Shown piece by piece: positions 920-43,178 of a DNA stretch of 64,000 bases. The notes under the pieces are model-generated. The model worked only from the letters and a program-made list of their open reading frames with translations, was not told the DNA's origin and ran no database searches. The DNA lies in the NCBI RefSeq assembly GCF_024298765.1, contig NZ_CP101210.1. The stretch is one strand, 5' to 3'. The position numbers were made by a program, and so were the translations under genes. Every line of letters begins with the position of its first letter. The first letter of the stretch is position 1. This DNA comes from Escherichia coli. Its GTDB lineage: Bacteria; Pseudomonadota; Gammaproteobacteria; Enterobacterales; Enterobacteriaceae.

Positions 920-1210
920 CTAATTAAGTAACGCCGCGATTTCTGGCGGGATTTGTTGCGGATTAATGATTTTAATTTGTTTGTGGCGGCCAAGTTCGCC
1001 TTTTTCAATCACCACCTGGCTTTTGGCAACCCGGAATTGCTTACCGAGAAACTTCACCAGATGGCTGTTGGCCTGGCCGTCAACCGGCGGCGCGGTTATG
1101 GCGACTTTTACCTCGTCGCCATGTAAACCGACAATAGAATCACGGCTGGCTTTCGGCTGAATATAGAGCCGTAAAACCAGACCGTCATCATTAATTGTTA
1201 CGGCACTCAT
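920..1210 (-). CDS. yggU: DUF167 protein YggU (96 aa)
   Basis: ORF 920..1222; start placed at the Met of [10 protein letters not shown]..., which forms an ATGA overlap with the yggT stop. The 100-aa alternative start at 1222 is possible. Confidence 0.75.
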
Positions 1211-1773
1211 AACGCCATCCACAGCCCCGGCAGCAGCATGTTTCCGGTTGCCTGTAATACTTCTGCGACACCCATATTGATGACATACAACAGCAGAACG
1301 AGGATCATCGGCGAGAAATCAATCCCACCCATTGCCGGTAGCAGGCGGCGAATCGGGCGCAGCAGCGGATCGGCCAGCTGAATCAGCACGTATTCAATCG
1401 GGCTACGCCCCTGGCTTACCCAGCTCATAATCGCCATCACCAGCAGGACCCAGAAAATCAGCAGGCCGATGGTTTTCAGCAGAATCAGTAAACCGGCAAT
1501 CCAAATGATTGGCAGAAAGGTCACCACTTTAAACAGCACGATGGCTTTGATGAAACTGAGAATGTACGCAACCAGCAGTGAGGCGCTGTCAATGGGCCCC
1601 ATTGCCGGAATAACGCGGCGCAGTGGCCCGATAATTGGCTGCGTTACCTTCACTACAAACTGTGAGAAGGGGTTGTAAAAATCACAATGAGCCCACTGCA
1701 TCCAGATGCGTAATAACAGCACCATGGTATACAGCTCAATGACCGTTGAAAGCAGGAAAGTCAACGTATTCAT
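1207..1773 (-). CDS. yggT: YggT family inner-membrane protein (188 aa)
   Basis: ORF 1207..1773; hydrophobic multi-TM translation; position between yggS and yggU. Confidence 0.9.
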
Positions 1774-1790: not shown

Positions 1791-2495
1791 TTATTTTTTA
1801 GAGTAATCACGCGCACCAAAAATTGCAGTGCCGATACGAACCATCGTGCTACCTGCCGCAATGGCGGCTTCCATATCGTCCGACATTCCCAGAGAGAGCG
1901 TGTCGATATGCGGGTAGCGTGTTTTCAGTCCGGCAAATGCTACAGCCATTTGGCGTGCAACTTCAAACTGCCTTACATATTCTGACTCAGGTGCAGGGAT
2001 TGCCATCAGCCCGCGCAGACGTAAACGCGGTAGTTCAGCGACCGCAGCTGCCAGCTCGTCCAGTTCAGCCAGTTGAATCCCGGACTTACTGTTTTCATCA
2101 CTAATATTAATTTGAATCAGTACGTTAAGAGGGGGAAGTTCTGCCGGGCGCTGATCGTTGAGGCGGGTAGCAATGCGCAAACGGTCGATGGTATGACACC
2201 AGTCGAAATGCTCTGCCACCAGGCGGCTTTTATTAGACTGCAACGGGCCAATAAAATGCCATTCTAATCCTGTTACGCCCAGTTCCTGAAAGTGGCGAAT
2301 TTTATCTACCCCTTCCTGAACGTAGTTTTCACCAAATTGACGCTGCCCGGCATCAATGGCTTCTGCGATGGCGCTCGCAGGTTTTGTTTTACTGACTGCA
2401 AGCAGCGTAATTTCTTCTGGAGAACGGCCGCAACGCGTTGCAGCCGCTGAGATTTTGTCCCGGACCTGTGCCAGGTTATGCGCAATATCGTTCAT
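1791..2495 (-). CDS. yggS: PLP-homeostasis protein YggS (234 aa)
   Basis: ORF 1791..2495; translation MNDIAHNLAQVRDKI...LAVSKTKP matches recalled YggS. Confidence 0.9.
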   Translation of the reverse strand: MNDIAHNLAQVRDKISAAATRCGRSPEEITLLAVSKTKPASAIAEAIDAGQRQFGENYVQEGVDKIRHFQELGVTGLEWHFIGPLQSNKSRLVAEHFDWCHTIDRLRIATRLNDQRPAELPPLNVLIQINISDENSKSGIQLAELDELAAAVAELPRLRLRGLMAIPAPESEYVRQFEVARQMAVAFAGLKTRYPHIDTLSLGMSDDMEAAIAAGSTMVRIGTAIFGARDYSKK

Positions 2496-2512
2496 TTTCC
2501 GAGGATCTTAGT

Positions 2513-3493
2513 ATGAATATGGAAGAAATTGTGGCCCTTAGTGTAAAGCATAACGTCTCGGATCTACACCTGTGCAGCGCCTGGCCCGCACGATGGCGTA
2601 TTCGCGGGCGAATGGAAGCTGCGCCGTTTGATGCGCCGGACGTCGAAGAGCTACTGCGGGAGTGGCTGGATGACGATCAGCGGGCAATATTGCTGGAGAA
2701 TGGTCAGCTGGATTTTGCCGTGTCGCTGGCGGAAAACCAGCGATTGCGTGGCAGTGCGTTCGCGCAACGGCAAGGCATTTCGCTGGCGTTACGGCTGTTA
2801 CCTTCGCACTGCCCGCAGCTCGAACAGCTTGGCGCACCAGCGGTATTGCCGGAATTACTCAAGAGCGAGAATGGCCTGATTCTGGTGACGGGGGCGACGG
2901 GGAGTGGCAAATCTACCACGCTGGCGGCGATGGTTGGCTATCTCAATCAACATGCCGATGCGCATATTCTGACGCTGGAAGATCCTGTCGAATATCTCTA
3001 TGCAAGCCAGCGATGTTTGATCCAGCAGCGGGAAATCGGTTTGCATTGTATGACGTTCGCATCGGGATTGCGGGCTGCATTGCGGGAAGATCCTGATGTG
3101 ATTTTGCTCGGAGAGCTGCGTGACAGCGAGACAATCCGTCTGGCGCTGACGGCGGCAGAAACCGGGCATTTGGTGCTGGCAACATTACATACGCGTGGTG
3201 CGGCGCAGGCAGTTGAGCGACTGGTAGATTCATTTCCGGCGCAGGAAAAAGATCCCGTGCGTAATCAACTGGCAGGTAGTTTACGGGCGGTGTTGTCACA
3301 AAAGCTGGAAGTGGATAAACAGGAAGGACGCGTGGCGTTGTTTGAATTGCTGATTAACACACCCGCGGTGGGGAATTTGATTCGTGAAGGGAAAACCCAC
3401 CAGTTACCGCATGTTATTCAAACCGGGCAGCAGGTGGGGATGATAACGTTTCAGCAGAGTTATCAGCAGCGGGTGAAAGAAGGGCGCTTGTGA
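2513..3493 (+). CDS. yggR: PilT-like type IV pilus retraction ATPase homologue YggR (326 aa)
   Basis: ORF 2438..3493 trimmed to MNMEEIVALSV; Walker A GATGSGKST present; divergent from yggS. Confidence 0.85.
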   Translation: MNMEEIVALSVKHNVSDLHLCSAWPARWRIRGRMEAAPFDAPDVEELLREWLDDDQRAILLENGQLDFAVSLAENQRLRGSAFAQRQGISLALRLLPSHCPQLEQLGAPAVLPELLKSENGLILVTGATGSGKSTTLAAMVGYLNQHADAHILTLEDPVEYLYASQRCLIQQREIGLHCMTFASGLRAALREDPDVILLGELRDSETIRLALTAAETGHLVLATLHTRGAAQAVERLVDSFPAQEKDPVRNQLAGSLRAVLSQKLEVDKQEGRVALFELLINTPAVGNLIREGKTHQLPHVIQTGQQVGMITFQQSYQQRVKEGRL

Positions 3494-18759: not shown

Positions 18760-19666
18760 ACTTAGTAGAGATAAACGGAACTGTACTGCCGGGGATCATG
18801 GTATCGGGTAGCTTACCGTCCCAACGCTCAGCAGTGGTGAGGGCAACAAGTCCGGGATTATCCCGCAGAGCTTCACCGCGCAGGCGGATCGCTTCTGCTT
18901 CAGCCGCACTTTTTAAACGAATAGTTTCAGCCTCTGCCGCGCCTCTTACGCGAATAGTCTCAGCTTCTGCTTTGGCTGCCGCCAGTTTACTGTCTGCTTC
19001 AGCCTGGGCCTGAGTTACTGCTATTTGCGCCTGGATTTTCTCTGTTTCCAGATTTTGCTTACGTGTGGCAATGGCGACTTCTGCTTTCATTCGATCTTCA
19101 ATCGATTTTTCATAAGCGTCAGAAAAATCAATATTTTCAATCTGGACACCATCAATCACCACCGGGCCAACAACGGCTTTACGCATTGCATTTTGCAGAT
19201 CCTGAACCAGTTTTGTACGATCCTGTACCGCGCTGATGGCGGTATATTGGCCGAAAACGTTCTCCAGTTGAGTTGGCAGCTGGCGGACGATCAGACGCTC
19301 TTTTAAAGATTCAATGGTGTTGTAGGTTGTATAAACTGCGCCAGCTTCTGAAGGTTTAATGTGGAAGCTGACTGATACTGTCATTTGTGCCGGTTGCTGG
19401 TCGCGGCTGTAGGCCTGTAATCCCTGATAAACCACAGCCTGATTACGCGTGGAAATTTTCTCCACGCTTTCCATAAAAGGGATCTTAAAACCCAGACCCG
19501 GCTCGGCAACTTTTACGATTTTTCCGTAGCGCAGCAAAATGCCGCGTTCACCTTCATTAACGGTGTAATACGAGAGAAATGGCAGCACAACCACGGCAAG
19601 CACGCCAATGACGATAGCAATAGATTTTTGTGGGCGAAATGAGGTTATTGAAACAGGTGCTTTCAT
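18758..19666 (-). CDS. SPFH/band-7 (prohibitin/HflC-like) membrane protein with C-terminal repeat-containing coiled coil (302 aa); candidate accessory gene
   Basis: ORF 18758..19666 with SD aaggaag 7 nt upstream; N-terminal TM helix (IAIVIGVLAVVVLPF) followed by an SPFH-like region; C-terminal AEAETIRVRGA/AEAETIRLKSA/AEAEAIRLRGE repeats. Confidence 0.8.
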   Translation of the reverse strand: MKAPVSITSFRPQKSIAIVIGVLAVVVLPFLSYYTVNEGERGILLRYGKIVKVAEPGLGFKIPFMESVEKISTRNQAVVYQGLQAYSRDQQPAQMTVSVSFHIKPSEAGAVYTTYNTIESLKERLIVRQLPTQLENVFGQYTAISAVQDRTKLVQDLQNAMRKAVVGPVVIDGVQIENIDFSDAYEKSIEDRMKAEVAIATRKQNLETEKIQAQIAVTQAQAEADSKLAAAKAEAETIRVRGAAEAETIRLKSAAEAEAIRLRGEALRDNPGLVALTTAERWDGKLPDTMIPGSTVPFISTK

Positions 19667-40750: not shown

Positions 40751-41983
40751 ATGGCAAAGGTATCGCTGGAGAAAGACAAGATTAAGTTTCTGCTGGTAGA
40801 AGGCGTGCACCAAAAGGCGCTGGAAAGCCTTCGTGCAGCGGGTTACACCAACATCGAATTTCACAAAGGCGCGCTGGATGATGAACAATTAAAAGAATCC
40901 ATCCGCGATGCCCACTTCATCGGCCTGCGATCCCGTACCCATCTGACTGAAGACGTGATCAACGCCGCAGAAAAACTGGTCGCTATTGGCTGTTTCTGTA
41001 TCGGAACAAACCAGGTTGATCTGGATGCGGCGGCAAAACGCGGGATCCCGGTATTTAACGCACCGTTCTCAAATACGCGCTCTGTTGCGGAGCTGGTGAT
41101 TGGCGAACTGCTGCTGCTATTGCGCGGCGTGCCGGAAGCCAATGCTAAAGCGCATCGTGGCGTGTGGAACAAACTGGCGGCGGGTTCTTTTGAAGCGCGC
41201 GGCAAAAAGCTGGGTATCATCGGCTACGGTCATATTGGTACGCAATTGGGCATTCTGGCTGAATCGCTGGGAATGTATGTTTACTTTTATGATATTGAAA
41301 ACAAACTGCCGCTGGGCAACGCCACTCAGGTACAGCATCTTTCTGACCTGCTGAATATGAGCGATGTGGTGAGTCTGCATGTACCAGAGAATCCGTCCAC
41401 CAAAAATATGATGGGCGCGAAAGAGATTTCGCTAATGAAACCCGGCTCGCTGCTGATTAATGCTTCGCGCGGTACTGTGGTGGATATTCCAGCGCTGTGT
41501 GACGCGCTGGCGAGCAAACATCTGGCGGGGGCGGCAATCGACGTATTCCCGACTGAACCGGCGACCAATAGCGATCCATTTACCTCTCCGCTGTGTGAAT
41601 TTGACAACGTCCTTCTGACGCCACACATTGGCGGTTCGACTCAGGAAGCGCAGGAGAATATCGGCTTGGAAGTTGCGGGTAAATTGATCAAGTATTCTGA
41701 CAATGGCTCAACGCTCTCTGCGGTGAACTTCCCGGAAGTCTCGCTGCCACTGCACGGTGGGCGTCGTCTGATGCACATCCACGAAAACCGTCCGGGCGTG
41801 CTAACTGCGCTCAACAAAATTTTTGCCGAGCAGGGCGTCAACATCGCCGCGCAATATCTACAAACTTCCGCCCAGATGGGTTATGTAGTTATTGATATTG
41901 AAGCCGACGAAGACGTTGCCGAAAAAGCGCTGCAGGCAATGAAAGCTATTCCGGGTACCATTCGCGCCCGTCTGCTGTACTAA
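40751..41983 (+). CDS. serA: D-3-phosphoglycerate dehydrogenase SerA (410 aa)
   Basis: ORF 40751..41983; translation MAKVSLEKDKIKFLLVEGVHQ. Confidence 0.95.
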   Translation: MAKVSLEKDKIKFLLVEGVHQKALESLRAAGYTNIEFHKGALDDEQLKESIRDAHFIGLRSRTHLTEDVINAAEKLVAIGCFCIGTNQVDLDAAAKRGIPVFNAPFSNTRSVAELVIGELLLLLRGVPEANAKAHRGVWNKLAAGSFEARGKKLGIIGYGHIGTQLGILAESLGMYVYFYDIENKLPLGNATQVQHLSDLLNMSDVVSLHVPENPSTKNMMGAKEISLMKPGSLLINASRGTVVDIPALCDALASKHLAGAAIDVFPTEPATNSDPFTSPLCEFDNVLLTPHIGGSTQEAQENIGLEVAGKLIKYSDNGSTLSAVNFPEVSLPLHGGRRLMHIHENRPGVLTALNKIFAEQGVNIAAQYLQTSAQMGYVVIDIEADEDVAEKALQAMKAIPGTIRARLLY

Positions 41984-42004
41984 TTCCCCTTCTCTGAAAA
42001 TTAA

Positions 42005-42035
42005 CGGGCAGGTCACTGACTTGCCCGTTTTTTTA
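42005..42035 (+). terminator. Rho-independent terminator of serA
   Basis: Hairpin cgggcaggtcactgacttgcccg followed by ttttttt. Confidence 0.65.
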
Positions 42036-42169
42036 TCCCTTCTCCACACCGTTGCCGCATTGCGCATTCTACTTTGCGAGTCTGCTCCAGAAAATAAATC
42101 AAAGTCAGATCAATGCGTTGTGTTTATTTAATGGGGATTTACGATGGCAGGGCAGCATGGGGCTGTAAC

Positions 42170-42310
42170 GGTAAAGCCCTCACCGAAGCGAGGGCTTGAA
42201 GGAGAAGGGTTATGATGCGACTTGTCATCATACTGATTGTACTGTTACTCATAAGTTTCCCAGCTTATTAACAGTCAGTCTCAGGGGAGGAGTCATCCTC
42301 CCTTACCCTT
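42170..42310 (-). ncRNA. sibC: SibC antisense sRNA (antitoxin of ibsC); ends approximate
   Basis: Minus-strand sigma70-like promoter (TTGACA-17 nt-TAATTT) at 42318..42346 reads antisense across ibsC; minus-strand hairpin at about 42160..42190 could be its terminator. Boundaries inferred, not measured. Confidence 0.5.
42212..42271 (+). CDS. ibsC: Type I toxin IbsC-like small hydrophobic peptide (19 aa)
   Basis: ggagaagggtt SD then atgatgcgacttgtcatcatactgattgtactgttactcataagtttcccagcttattaa, translating MMRLVIILIVLLLISFPAY; serA-ygfA intergenic position matches the known ibsC/sibC locus. Confidence 0.6.
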   Translation: MMRLVIILIVLLLISFPAY

Positions 42311-42317
42311 ACTCACT

Positions 42318-42346
42318 AAATTAGGTTAAAGAATCAACGATGTCAA
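42318..42346 (-). promoter_or_regulatory. Putative sigma70 promoter of sibC
   Basis: Minus-strand ttgaca (plus 42341..42346), 17-nt spacer, taattt (plus 42318..42323). Confidence 0.4.
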
Positions 42347-42371
42347 TCAGGGCGATGCAGGTGTGTCGCCC

Positions 42372-42920
42372 TCACCACTCCCAGACTTTCGACGGTGTAA
42401 CCACCGCAGGAAGAGGGATATCCCACTCTTCAACGGGGAGTTTTTCCACTAACTGACAATCATGCGCATAACCCACCGGTTGCATTTTATAGTGCTGCCA
42501 GTTTTGTAAGGTCCGATCATAAAAACCACCGCCCATTCCCAGGCGCTGACCGTACTCATCAAAGGCGACCAGCGGTGTGATCAACACGTCTAATCGGGAA
42601 AGGGGTAGCACGTCACGCACATCCAGTTTTGGCTCATGGATCTTCAACCTGTTCATCACCAGTTCGCTTTGCGGATGGTAATTCAGGAACAGCAAATTAC
42701 CGGCACTGAAGGGATGCAAAACTGGAAGATATACGCGCTTACCGGCGCGCCAGAGTTGTTCTATGAGTGGCAGGGTGTCGAGTTCGCCATCAAAAGAGAG
42801 GAATACAGCGACCGTATGTGCCATCACCACCGGGGGATAAGTCATCATCCGGGTAGCGGCTTGTTGACCCATTTCCTGCTGTTGTTCCGGCGTTAACGCA
42901 CGACGACGTTGCCGAATCAT
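42372..42920 (-). CDS. ygfA: 5-formyltetrahydrofolate cyclo-ligase YgfA (182 aa)
   Basis: ORF 42372..43118 trimmed to MIRQRRRALTPEQQQEMGQQ; the ORF-track extension runs into ssrS and is not coding. Confidence 0.85.
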   Translation of the reverse strand: MIRQRRRALTPEQQQEMGQQAATRMMTYPPVVMAHTVAVFLSFDGELDTLPLIEQLWRAGKRVYLPVLHPFSAGNLLFLNYHPQSELVMNRLKIHEPKLDVRDVLPLSRLDVLITPLVAFDEYGQRLGMGGGFYDRTLQNWQHYKMQPVGYAHDCQLVEKLPVEEWDIPLPAVVTPSKVWEW

Positions 42921-42993
42921 TTTGCGGATTTCTTGTCGGGATAATGTCAGTGGGAGTTCTGGTAGTTGCGTCATGGCTGGTGCCAGATAAGAA

Positions 42994-43178
42994 GGAAATC
43001 TCCGAGATGCCGCCGCAGGCTGTAACCCTTGAACCCTTGGTTCAAGGTGAATGTGTCGTCGCAGTTTTAAGGCTTCTCGGACGGACCGAGCATGCTCACC
43101 AACCGCGGAGCGCCACATTCTTGTGGTATGAAATATCGGCTCAGGGGACTGGCCCGCTTGCGAACATCTCAGAGAAAT
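42994..43178 (-). ncRNA. ssrS: 6S RNA (SsrS), RNA polymerase-binding regulatory RNA
   Basis: Minus strand reads AUUUCUCUGAGAUGUUCGCAAGCGGGCCAGUCCCCUGAGCCGAUAUUUCAUACCACAAGAAUGUGGCGCUCCGCGG..., matching recalled E. coli 6S RNA; immediately upstream of ygfA. Confidence 0.85.

What the first reader, a model, noticed from the sequence alone, without database searches (positions are those of the whole stretch)
42150..42350. ibsC/sibC type I toxin-antitoxin locus in the serA-ygfA spacer, with a Pro variant of the toxin
A 19-codon ORF with a good SD encodes MMRLVIILIVLLLISFPAY, a hydrophobic Ibs-type membrane toxin. A strong-looking minus-strand promoter (TTGACA-17-TAATTT) would transcribe an antisense RNA across it, the SibC arrangement. 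ORF callers miss this locus. My recollection of K-12 IbsC is ...ISFSAY, so the Pro here may be a strain variant.
Basis: partly seen in the sequence, partly recalled or inferred. Interest (0 to 1): 0.4.

Follow-up and report, generated by a model that had tools for sequence, protein, structure and literature searches.

The report
Known ibsC/sibC toxin-antitoxin locus
This is the well-known E. coli ibsC/sibC toxin-antitoxin pair in its usual place between serA and fau, and its proline "variant" is a common natural allele, found in about half of complete E. coli genomes, so the finding is correct but ordinary.

Summary
The observation and the interpretation both hold. Window 42212..42271 (+) encodes MMRLVIILIVLLLISFPAY behind an AAGGAG Shine-Dalgarno. 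The opposite strand gives a full-length Rfam SIB_RNA hit (136.5 bits, gathering score 56, E 4e-29). The peptide passes Pfam Ibs_toxin (47.3 bits, cut-off 27).

The locus lies between serA and fau (ygfA), next to ssrS, as ibsC/sibC does in K-12, and is 97.5% identical to K-12 over about 400 nt. Transferring the K-12 annotation puts SibC at 42310..42170 (-), 141 nt.

K-12 IbsC does end in SFSAY. Pro is not rare, though:
- The CCA allele is in 2789 of 5426 complete E. coli genomes.
- K-12's AGC is in 2165.
- A GGA (Gly) allele is in 1841, apparently mostly strains with two tandem copies here.
- RefSeq already lists the Pro peptide as IbsC (WP_071525914.1).

The one added point is that codon 17 differs from K-12 at all three bases. 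It lies opposite SibC +49..+51 in the P5 apical loop. This is the TRD1 triplet that Han et al. (2010) mutated, together with TRD2, to retarget SibC to ibsD. TRD2 here is the same as in K-12.

Verdict: already known, low interest.

The parts
42212..42271 (+). ibsC coding sequence, 19 codons plus stop: MMRLVIILIVLLLISFPAY
   Evidence: Translation. Pfam PF13956 Ibs_toxin 47.3 bits against a cut-off of 27, covering profile positions 1-19. The identical DNA in E. coli strain 104 is annotated as IbsC, WP_071525914.1.
42199..42204 (+). Shine-Dalgarno AAGGAG of ibsC, 7 nt upstream of the ATG
   Evidence: Read. It is complementary to the SibC TRD2 core C107UCCUUC113 defined by Han et al. 2010 (PMC2943612).
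42152..42310 (+). ibsC mRNA, 159 nt. Coordinates are inferred by transfer from the K-12 mapping, not measured here.
   Evidence: Han et al. 2010 report a 159-nt ibsC mRNA with an 18-nt 5' overhang beyond the SibC 3' end, and G50/G51/G53 pairing with SibC C110/C109/C107. Position 42152 satisfies both. The predicted fold is -63.1 kcal/mol, z -5.0, nearly the same as K-12.
42118..42145 (+). Putative ibsC promoter TTGTGT (42118..42123), 16-nt spacer, TACGAT (42140..42145). Inferred and weak.
   Evidence: Position relative to the transferred TSS at 42152. The generic scanner did not report it. The sequence is identical to K-12.
42170..42310 (-). SibC antitoxin RNA, 141 nt, antisense to the whole ibsC ORF and its ribosome-binding site
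   Evidence: K-12 sibC (b4446) coordinates 3056851..3056991 relative to ibsC 3056890..3056949, transferred through an indel-free alignment. Rfam SIB_RNA 136.5 bits. Fold -55.3 kcal/mol, z -4.9, with the same MFE structure as K-12 SibC.
42318..42346 (-). sibC promoter: -35 TTGACA (42346..42341), 17-nt spacer, -10 TAATTT (42323..42318)
   Evidence: Read. It matches Rfam model positions 1-29, since the model includes the promoter. The K-12 SibC 5' end maps 7 nt downstream. A sigma-S ChIP-seq peak was reported at the K-12 sibC promoter (PMC4447067).
42174..42197 (-). SibC 3' terminator hairpin (P7): AAGCCCUC-GCUUCGGU-GAGGGCUU, followed by UACC
   Evidence: Perfect 8-bp inverted repeat. Predicted hairpin in the fold. 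The K-12 SibC 3' end maps to 42170.
42243..42265 (-). SibC TRD1 (+46..+68), including the 8-nt P5 apical loop (+48..+55, 42256..42263)
   Evidence: Domain limits from Han et al. 2010. Positions 48-55 are unpaired in the MFE fold.
42260..42262 (.). The variable triplet: CCA (Pro17) on the ibsC strand, UGG at SibC +49..+51. K-12 has AGC (Ser) and GCU.
   Evidence: All three bases differ from K-12. Han et al. changed K-12 G49CU51 to UGC when retargeting SibC to ibsD.
42196..42212 (-). SibC TRD2 (+99..+115), antisense to the ibsC Shine-Dalgarno and start region; identical to K-12
   Evidence: Domain limits from Han et al. 2010. Zero mismatches to K-12 SibC.
42285..42302 (.). P2 hairpin of SibC (+9..+26), which on the other strand is the 3' hairpin of the ibsC mRNA. 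The loop is UGAC here and UUGC in K-12.
   Evidence: Folds. Two adjacent loop differences from K-12.

Best explanation
This is the E. coli chromosomal type I toxin-antitoxin pair ibsC/sibC, the ortholog of K-12 b4665/b4446, in its usual place between serA and fau (ygfA).

How it works, taken from the K-12 literature and not tested here:
- A weak promoter near 42118..42145 makes a roughly 159-nt ibsC mRNA. It encodes a 19-residue hydrophobic peptide that depolarises the inner membrane when overproduced.
- From the opposite strand, TTGACA-17-TAATTT drives the 141-nt SibC RNA (42310..42170). SibC is complementary to the whole ORF and its ribosome-binding site.
- SibC makes first contact through two single-stranded elements. 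TRD1 is the P5 apical loop, opposite codons 16-18. TRD2 is the J1/7 segment, opposite the Shine-Dalgarno.
- Pairing then spreads, blocks translation and exposes the duplex to RNase III.

The allele in this window has CCA (Pro) at codon 17 where K-12 has AGC (Ser). Because the antitoxin is encoded on the opposite strand, the same three bases put UGG instead of GCU in the P5 loop of SibC, so toxin and antitoxin stay matched. It is a common natural allele and probably the ancestral one, not a novelty.
For: Shown here:
- Rfam SIB_RNA full-length hit, 136.5 bits against 56, E 4e-29.
- Pfam Ibs_toxin, 47.3 bits against 27.
- ORF and Shine-Dalgarno are intact.
- Synteny serA-ibsC-fau-ssrS-zapA matches K-12 and other E. 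coli.
- 5424 of 5426 complete E. coli genomes match at least 80% of the 401-nt region.
- SibC folds into the same MFE structure as K-12 SibC (-55.3 kcal/mol, z -4.9). All five differences from K-12 fall in two apical loops, three in P5 and two in P2.
- TRD2 is identical to K-12.
- The exact 31-mer around CCA is present in 2789 genomes, always once per genome. AGC is in 2165 and GGA in 1841.
- The identical 60-mer is in 939 genomes.
- RefSeq names the same peptide IbsC, WP_071525914.1.
- Pro occupies residue 17 of K-12 IbsE and the aligned position (residue 16 of 18) of IbsB. Pro17 also occurs in Kluyvera, Citrobacter and E. albertii Ibs copies.

From the literature:
- Mechanism, TRD1/TRD2 and the G49CU51 triplet (PMC2943612).
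- Membrane depolarisation and toxicity (PMC8309996).
- RNase III involvement (PMC4147584).
Against: Nothing in the sequence argues against it. Several things remain untested here:
- No transcript, toxicity or repression data exist for this allele.
- The -10 TAATTT is a poor consensus match, and the generic promoter scan reported no site.
- The ibsC promoter and mRNA ends are transferred from K-12 by alignment.
- NCBIfam gave no hit for the padded 20-aa query.
- The primary papers on Ibs toxicity (Fozo 2008, Mok 2010) were not held in the library, so whether Pro17 keeps IbsC toxic rests only on Pro being natural at that position in paralogs.
Confidence: 0.95

Rival explanations
1. The triplet change is a functional specificity switch. 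UGG in the P5 loop would make this SibC/ibsC pair partly orthogonal to the K-12 (GCU) and Gly-allele (UCC) pairs. Whole-triplet replacement would then be selected so that duplicated copies can coexist without cross-talk, or to shift cross-talk toward ibsD.
For: - The triplet is exactly the one Han et al. changed (G49CU51 to UGC) when making SibC repress ibsD.
- All three bases differ between alleles, and at least four alleles (CCA, CCG, AGC, GGA) segregate at this one codon while the stems are invariant.
- In two-copy strains the two copies carry different triplets, GGA and CCA.
- Residue 17 is the hypervariable residue across Enterobacteriaceae Ibs copies: A, P, Q, H, S, T, G.
- This allele's TRD1 is closer to K-12 SibD (2 mismatches) than K-12 SibC is (4 mismatches).
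Against: - Han et al. found that either TRD alone suffices. A SibC with TRD1 swapped but TRD2 intact still repressed ibsC.
- TRD2 here is identical to K-12, and differs by only one base between the tandem copies of strain D1. The alleles at this locus should therefore still cross-repress.
- In the window there is only one copy, so nothing at this locus needs discriminating.
- The paralogs of the window's own genome were not available.
Confidence: 0.25
2. Pro17 weakens or abolishes toxicity, so this is a decaying or attenuated copy kept only as a small-RNA gene.
For: - Proline near the C-terminal end of a short transmembrane helix could disturb it.
- A review of Mok et al. states that residues 6-19 are needed for IbsC toxicity.
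- The locus is dispensable. O157:H7 TR01 has lost the whole repeat, and 39 genomes lack the 60-mer.
Against: - The ORF, Shine-Dalgarno, both promoters and all stems are intact and identical to K-12 outside the loops.
- Pro is natural at this position in K-12 IbsE, annotated as a toxic peptide, and at the aligned position in IbsB. It also occurs in several other genera.
- The allele is found in about half of E. coli genomes with no disrupted ORFs among those sampled.
- The Pfam score is well above the cut-off.
Confidence: 0.07
3. The single-copy Pro allele is a secondary product of recombination, either a deletion between two tandem copies or gene conversion from a neighbouring copy, rather than an old allele.
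For: - About 1860 genomes carry two matching places, and in strain D1 these are two tandem copies at this locus.
- The window shares the CCA triplet with D1 copy 2 but the P2 loop (UGAC) with D1 copy 1. Flanking markers are reshuffled among strains, which looks mosaic.
Against: - The window lacks the changes found in only one D1 copy: copy 1 TRD2 C113U and codon 13 CTG; copy 2 codon 5 GCC and CACAG. No single crossover explains it.
- A separate GTDB Escherichia species representative (MOD1-EC7003, L035) has a single copy with CCA at the same locus, which favours CCA and a single copy being old.
Confidence: 0.2

Closest known systems
E. coli K-12 ibsC/sibC (b4665/b4446), Ibs-Sib type I toxin-antitoxin family (Fozo et al. 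2008; Han et al. 2010)
   Same: - Same genomic position, serA-[ibsC/sibC]-fau-ssrS.
- Same lengths: 19 codons and a 141-nt antisense RNA.
- 97.5% identity over 398 of the 401 nt queried, with no indels in the pairwise alignment.
- Identical Shine-Dalgarno, identical -35 and -10 hexamers on both strands, identical stems and TRD2.
- Identical predicted SibC fold.
   Different: - Codon 17 is CCA (Pro) instead of AGC (Ser), so SibC +49..+51 is UGG instead of GCU in the TRD1 loop.
- The P2 loop is UGAC instead of UUGC.
- There is one base change in the sibC promoter spacer, at 42327.
- The UUCA (YUNR) motif noted by Han et al. in the ibsC mRNA loop becomes UUCC here.
The fau-proximal Ibs/Sib copy of two-copy E. 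coli strains (e.g. strain D1, WP_001387035.1; O157:H7-type strains)
   Same: Same CCA triplet and identical TRD1 and TRD2, and the same right-hand flank to fau.
   Different: - Those strains carry a second, serA-proximal copy with GGA (Gly17).
- D1 copy 2 also has Ala5 and two other base differences.
- The window has a single copy.
K-12 paralogs ibsD/sibD and ibsE/sibE (yqiK-hldE spacer) and ibsA/B (yegL-mdtA spacer)
   Same: Same family and architecture. IbsE also has Pro at residue 17, and IbsB has Pro at the aligned position, residue 16 of 18.
   Different: - 34-57 mismatches or gaps over the 141 nt.
- Different TRD2, with 8-11 differences.
- Different genomic sites.

Membership tests
Sib RNA (Rfam RF00113, SIB_RNA) | Covariance-model score at or above the curated gathering score | tested here: met
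   136.5 bits against 56, full model 1-147, E 4e-29.
Sib RNA (Rfam RF00113, SIB_RNA) | Encoded antisense to, and spanning, the whole ibs ORF and its ribosome-binding site | tested here: met
   SibC at 42310..42170 (-) covers the Shine-Dalgarno at 42199..42204 and the ORF at 42212..42271.
Sib RNA (Rfam RF00113, SIB_RNA) | Own promoter and terminator hairpin giving an RNA of about 140 nt | tested here: met
   TTGACA-17-TAATTT and a perfect 8-bp terminal hairpin are in the sequence. The 141-nt length comes from transferring the K-12 ends. The generic promoter scan did not call the site.
Sib RNA (Rfam RF00113, SIB_RNA) | TRD1 in the P5 apical loop and TRD2 in a single-stranded junction before the terminator (Han et al. 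2010) | tested here: met
   In the MFE fold, +48..+55 is an 8-nt loop and +107..+113 is unpaired. The structure is the same as K-12.
Sib RNA (Rfam RF00113, SIB_RNA) | The antisense RNA is actually transcribed and accumulates | not testable with these tools
   No expression data for this strain. For K-12, northern blots and sigma-S ChIP are reported.
Ibs toxin (Pfam PF13956) | Profile score at or above the gathering score over the whole 19-residue profile | tested here: met
   47.3 bits against 27, profile 1-19. The query was padded with one upstream in-frame codon to reach the 20-aa minimum.
Ibs toxin (Pfam PF13956) | Hydrophobic peptide of 18-19 residues with the MMxxVIIL...SFx(A/T)Y pattern and a Shine-Dalgarno | tested here: met
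   MMRLVIILIVLLLISFPAY with AAGGAG 7 nt upstream. Compared with 33 family members.
Ibs toxin (Pfam PF13956) | Overproduction is toxic and depolarises the membrane | not testable with these tools
   Reported for K-12 IbsC (Ser17). Not known for Pro17 at this locus.
ibsC/sibC ortholog (as opposed to another Ibs/Sib paralog) | Location between serA and fau (ygfA), and closest sequence to K-12 sibC | tested here: met
   Synteny. There are 5 differences from K-12 SibC against 34-57 from SibA, B, D and E.
Type I toxin-antitoxin system | The RNA antitoxin represses toxin synthesis by base pairing with the toxin mRNA | not testable with these tools
   Perfect complementarity is given by the cis arrangement. 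Repression is shown only for K-12.

The most novel reading that the evidence does not exclude
The three bases of ibsC codon 17, which are also SibC +49..+51 in the TRD1 kissing loop, form a naturally polymorphic recognition triplet. It appears to be replaced as a unit (CCA, CCG, AGC, GGA at this one locus in E. coli). Because the pair is cis-encoded, each replacement changes a toxin residue and the antitoxin recognition loop together. Selection on RNA-RNA discrimination, for example between the two tandem copies carried by about a third of strains, would then be what drives the amino-acid variability of the toxin at residue 17, and at residues 3-4 opposite the P6 loop.
Probability: 0.3. Interest if true: 0.35.

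Novelty: already known. Interest (0 to 1): 0.12.

Why it matters
As a locus it adds nothing new. ibsC/sibC has been characterised since 2008, Rfam and Pfam both recognise it, and RefSeq already lists this exact peptide as IbsC.

The modest value lies in annotation and in one observation:
- Most RefSeq E. coli records annotate ibsC but not the overlapping sibC RNA.
- The K-12 reference allele (Ser17, GCU loop) is not the commonest state in the species.
- The experimentally defined TRD1 discriminator triplet turns out to be the most polymorphic spot of the locus in natural E. coli, together with one-or-two copy-number variation. This gives a ready-made natural allele series for testing how cis-antisense pairs diverge in specificity.

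Tried and rejected
- My first translation, starting at 42213, was one base off. Corrected to 42212.
- The generic sigma-70 scan found no promoter on either strand in 41900..42500. I do not read this as absence. The -10 elements are weak matches (3 of 6), and the K-12 transcript ends fit the hexamers.
- The listing of cluster members refuses peptides under 20 aa, so cluster counts for the 19-mer could not be obtained. Allele counts were made instead with exact 31-mer megablast queries.
- I tried to fetch the ibsD/E paralogs of a genome carrying the window's allele (strain 104) by guessing coordinates from K-12 spacing. The region held glc/gsp genes and an island, with no Ibs. Abandoned, so within-genome cross-talk was judged only against K-12 paralogs and from the CCA 31-mer occurring once per genome.
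- Fozo et al. 2008 (PMC2597788), Fozo 2012 and Mok et al. 2010 (PMC3009890) are not held. Their content is cited only through reviews.
- NCBIfam gave no hit for the padded 20-aa query.
- The genome contigs pattern fixed 35 bases, so conservation at those positions is by construction. Only variability at the N positions is informative.
- Considered and rejected a pseudogene or relic reading (everything is intact) and a chance ORF (Rfam and Pfam scores, synteny).

Full report
**Observation.** The region reads as the first-stage reader described it.
- Window 42212..42271 (+) is ATGATGCGACTT...TTCCCAGCTTATTAA and translates to MMRLVIILIVLLLISFPAY*. An earlier attempt at 42213 was out of frame.
- AAGGAG lies at 42199..42204, 7 nt upstream of the ATG.
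- On the minus strand, TTGACA (42346..42341) and TAATTT (42323..42318) are separated by 17 nt.
- The generic promoter scanner reported nothing here, because TAATTT matches TATAAT at only three positions.
- The ORF has 19 codons, below the 20-aa floor of the ORF listing, so it is absent.

**Is it more than chance?** Yes.
- Rfam's SIB_RNA model (RF00113) matches 42196..42346 (-) over its full length at 136.5 bits against a gathering score of 56, E 4e-29. It is the only Sib match in the 64-kb window.
- The Rfam model starts at the -35 hexamer and stops before the terminator, so its coordinates are not those of the RNA.
- The peptide, padded with one in-frame upstream codon to reach the tool's 20-aa minimum, scores 47.3 bits against Pfam PF13956 Ibs_toxin (cut-off 27) across the whole 19-position profile. 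NCBIfam returned nothing for that query.

**Identity and context.**
- The flanking ORFs are serA (40751..41983, +) and fau, formerly ygfA (42372..42974, -). ssrS/6S RNA follows at 42995..43178 (-).
- This is exactly the K-12 arrangement, where the curated record NC_000913.3 annotates sibC (b4446, 3056851..3056991) overlapping ibsC (b4665, 3056890..3056949) between fau and serA.
- The 401-nt stretch 42000..42400 matches over at least 80% of its length in 5424 of 5426 complete E. coli genomes. It is 100% identical to strain 104 and 97.5% identical to K-12 over 398 nt, with no indels in the pairwise alignment.
- Transferring the K-12 ends places SibC at 42310..42170 (-), 141 nt. Its 5' end is 7 nt downstream of TAATTT. 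Its 3' end follows a perfect 8-bp hairpin at 42174..42197.
- Han et al. (2010, PMC2943612) describe a 159-nt ibsC mRNA whose 5' end overhangs the SibC 3' end by 18 nt, and whose G50, G51 and G53 pair with SibC C110, C109 and C107. Both conditions put the ibsC start at 42152, downstream of a weak TTGTGT-16-TACGAT. This step is inference by transfer.

**The Pro 'variant'.** Pro is not unusual, though. Exact 31-mers centred on codon 17 need a 28-nt perfect word, so they count alleles:

| Codon 17 | Residue | Genomes of 5426 |
|---|---|---|
| CCA | Pro | 2789 (always one place per genome) |
| AGC | Ser (K-12) | 2165 |
| GGA | Gly | 1841 |

- A CCG (Pro) allele also exists, in strain MS8345.
- About 1860 genomes give two matching places, close to the 1841 genomes with the GGA allele. 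Only strain D1 was opened, and it carries two tandem ibs/sib copies between serA and fau: the serA-proximal copy with GGA and the fau-proximal copy with CCA.
- Fozo et al. 2010 report seven Ibs genes in O157:H7 Sakai against five in K-12 (PMC2887945; PMC2943612). An extra copy at this locus would fit that count.
- The 60-mer 42232..42291 is identical in 939 genomes, and all six sampled at 100% identity were single-copy. The window's configuration, one copy with Pro, is therefore common.
- RefSeq already names the peptide IbsC, WP_071525914.1.
- The Rfam consensus at this triplet is uGg, the antisense of CCA.
- In a scan of species-representative genomes, a separate GTDB Escherichia species representative (MOD1-EC7003, L035) has a single copy with CCA at the same serA-fau site. 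A Citrobacter (MGH106, L038) has GCA there. Pro is thus probably ancestral in Escherichia and K-12's Ser derived.

**What the triplet is at the RNA level.** This is the one point worth adding.
- Codon 17 differs from K-12 at all three bases, CCA against AGC.
- It lies opposite SibC +49..+51, which is UGG here and G49C50U51 in K-12.
- Han et al. defined two independent target-recognition domains: TRD1 (+46..+68, the P5 loop) and TRD2 (+99..+115, antisense to the translation-initiation region).
- They retargeted SibC to ibsD by changing precisely G49CU51 to UGC in TRD1, and C107UCCUUC113 in TRD2.
- In the predicted fold, this SibC adopts the same structure as K-12 SibC (-55.3 kcal/mol for both; z -4.9 and -5.5). 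The triplet sits in the 8-nt apical loop +48..+55.
- The only other differences inside the RNA are two adjacent bases in the P2 tetraloop. All five differences from K-12 are therefore in loops and none in stems.
- TRD2 is identical to K-12.
- Han et al. found that either TRD alone suffices for repression, so the Ser and Pro alleles should still cross-repress. That is inference.

**Family-wide pattern.** Across 33 Ibs ORFs from Escherichia, Citrobacter, Salmonella, Hafnia, Kluyvera and others, residue 17 takes A, P, Q, H, S, T or G. Residues 3-4 also vary. These codons lie opposite Sib loops P5 and P6. The search pattern fixed 35 bases, so only the variability at free positions is informative.

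**Mechanism.** This comes from the literature on K-12 and is not tested here.
- Ibs overproduction depolarises the membrane and kills the cell, and Sib RNA expression represses this (PMC8309996; PMC2943612).
- Pairing starts at TRD1 and TRD2 and spreads.
- Translation is blocked, and the duplex is probably processed by RNase III (PMC4147584).
- Sigma-S RNA polymerase binds the K-12 sibC promoter (PMC4447067).

**Rivals.**
- An attenuated or decaying copy is unlikely. Everything outside the loops is identical to K-12, and Pro is natural at this position in IbsE, in IbsB at the aligned position, and in other genera.
- A secondary origin by recombination between tandem copies cannot be excluded, since markers are mosaic among strains. 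However, the window lacks the changes found in only one D1 copy, and an outgroup shares the single-copy CCA state.
- A true specificity switch is the most interesting reading. It is weakened by the unchanged TRD2.

**Verdict.** The finding is correct in observation and interpretation, and it describes an already known, well-characterised locus carrying a common allele. Interest is low.

Noticed in passing
window 42995..43178 (-): ssrS (6S RNA) lies just beyond fau. Rfam RF00013 scores 139.7 bits against a gathering score of 46.4. This is the expected neighbour, as in K-12.
   Followed up: partly
L004 (E. coli strain D1) 1047..1187 and 1439..1579: About a third of complete E. coli genomes give two matching places for this region. 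In strain D1 these are two tandem ibs/sib copies between serA and fau, Gly17/GGA then Pro17/CCA. The two Sib RNAs differ by 3 nt in TRD1 but only 1 nt in TRD2, so by the published 'either TRD suffices' rule they should cross-repress.
   Followed up: partly
L010 (E. coli O157:H7 TR01) 2482..2688: The whole ibs/sib repeat is cleanly deleted, leaving a serA-fau spacer of 207 nt instead of 388 nt. Thirty-nine of 5426 genomes lack the 60-mer, so the locus is dispensable.
   Followed up: partly
window 42256..42263: The Pro allele turns the UUCA (YUNR) motif, which Han et al. noted in the ibsC mRNA loop, into UUCC. The SibC loop keeps a YUNR (CUGG here, CUGA in K-12). This was read off the sequences; its effect on kissing kinetics is unknown.
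   Followed up: no
window 42218..42223 and 42260..42262; loci L012-L039: The Ibs residues that vary across Enterobacteriaceae (3, 4 and 17) are the ones encoded opposite the Sib apical loops P6 (+86..+93) and P5 (+48..+55). This suggests toxin variability follows RNA-level divergence. The search pattern biases this comparison.
   Followed up: partly
L001, L002, L004 (RefSeq PGAP-style records) against L003 (NC_000913.3): The PGAP-style RefSeq records annotate the ibsC CDS but not the overlapping sibC ncRNA. Only the curated K-12 record lists sibC.
   Followed up: yes
window 42003..42029 (+): A strong intrinsic terminator hairpin (12 pairs, then a T7 run) lies 20 nt after the serA stop codon. 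This is the serA terminator. It separates serA transcription from the ibsC promoter region.
   Followed up: no
window 42372..43118 (-): The longest ORF in the fau frame (248 aa) runs upstream across ssrS. RefSeq records start fau at 42974 (200 aa) and NC_000913.3 shorter still (182 aa). This is a start-codon annotation discrepancy only.
   Followed up: no
window 19191..19229: The only tandem repeat in the window is a weak one (period 21, 1.9 copies, score 55). No tRNA genes occur in the 64 kb.
   Followed up: no
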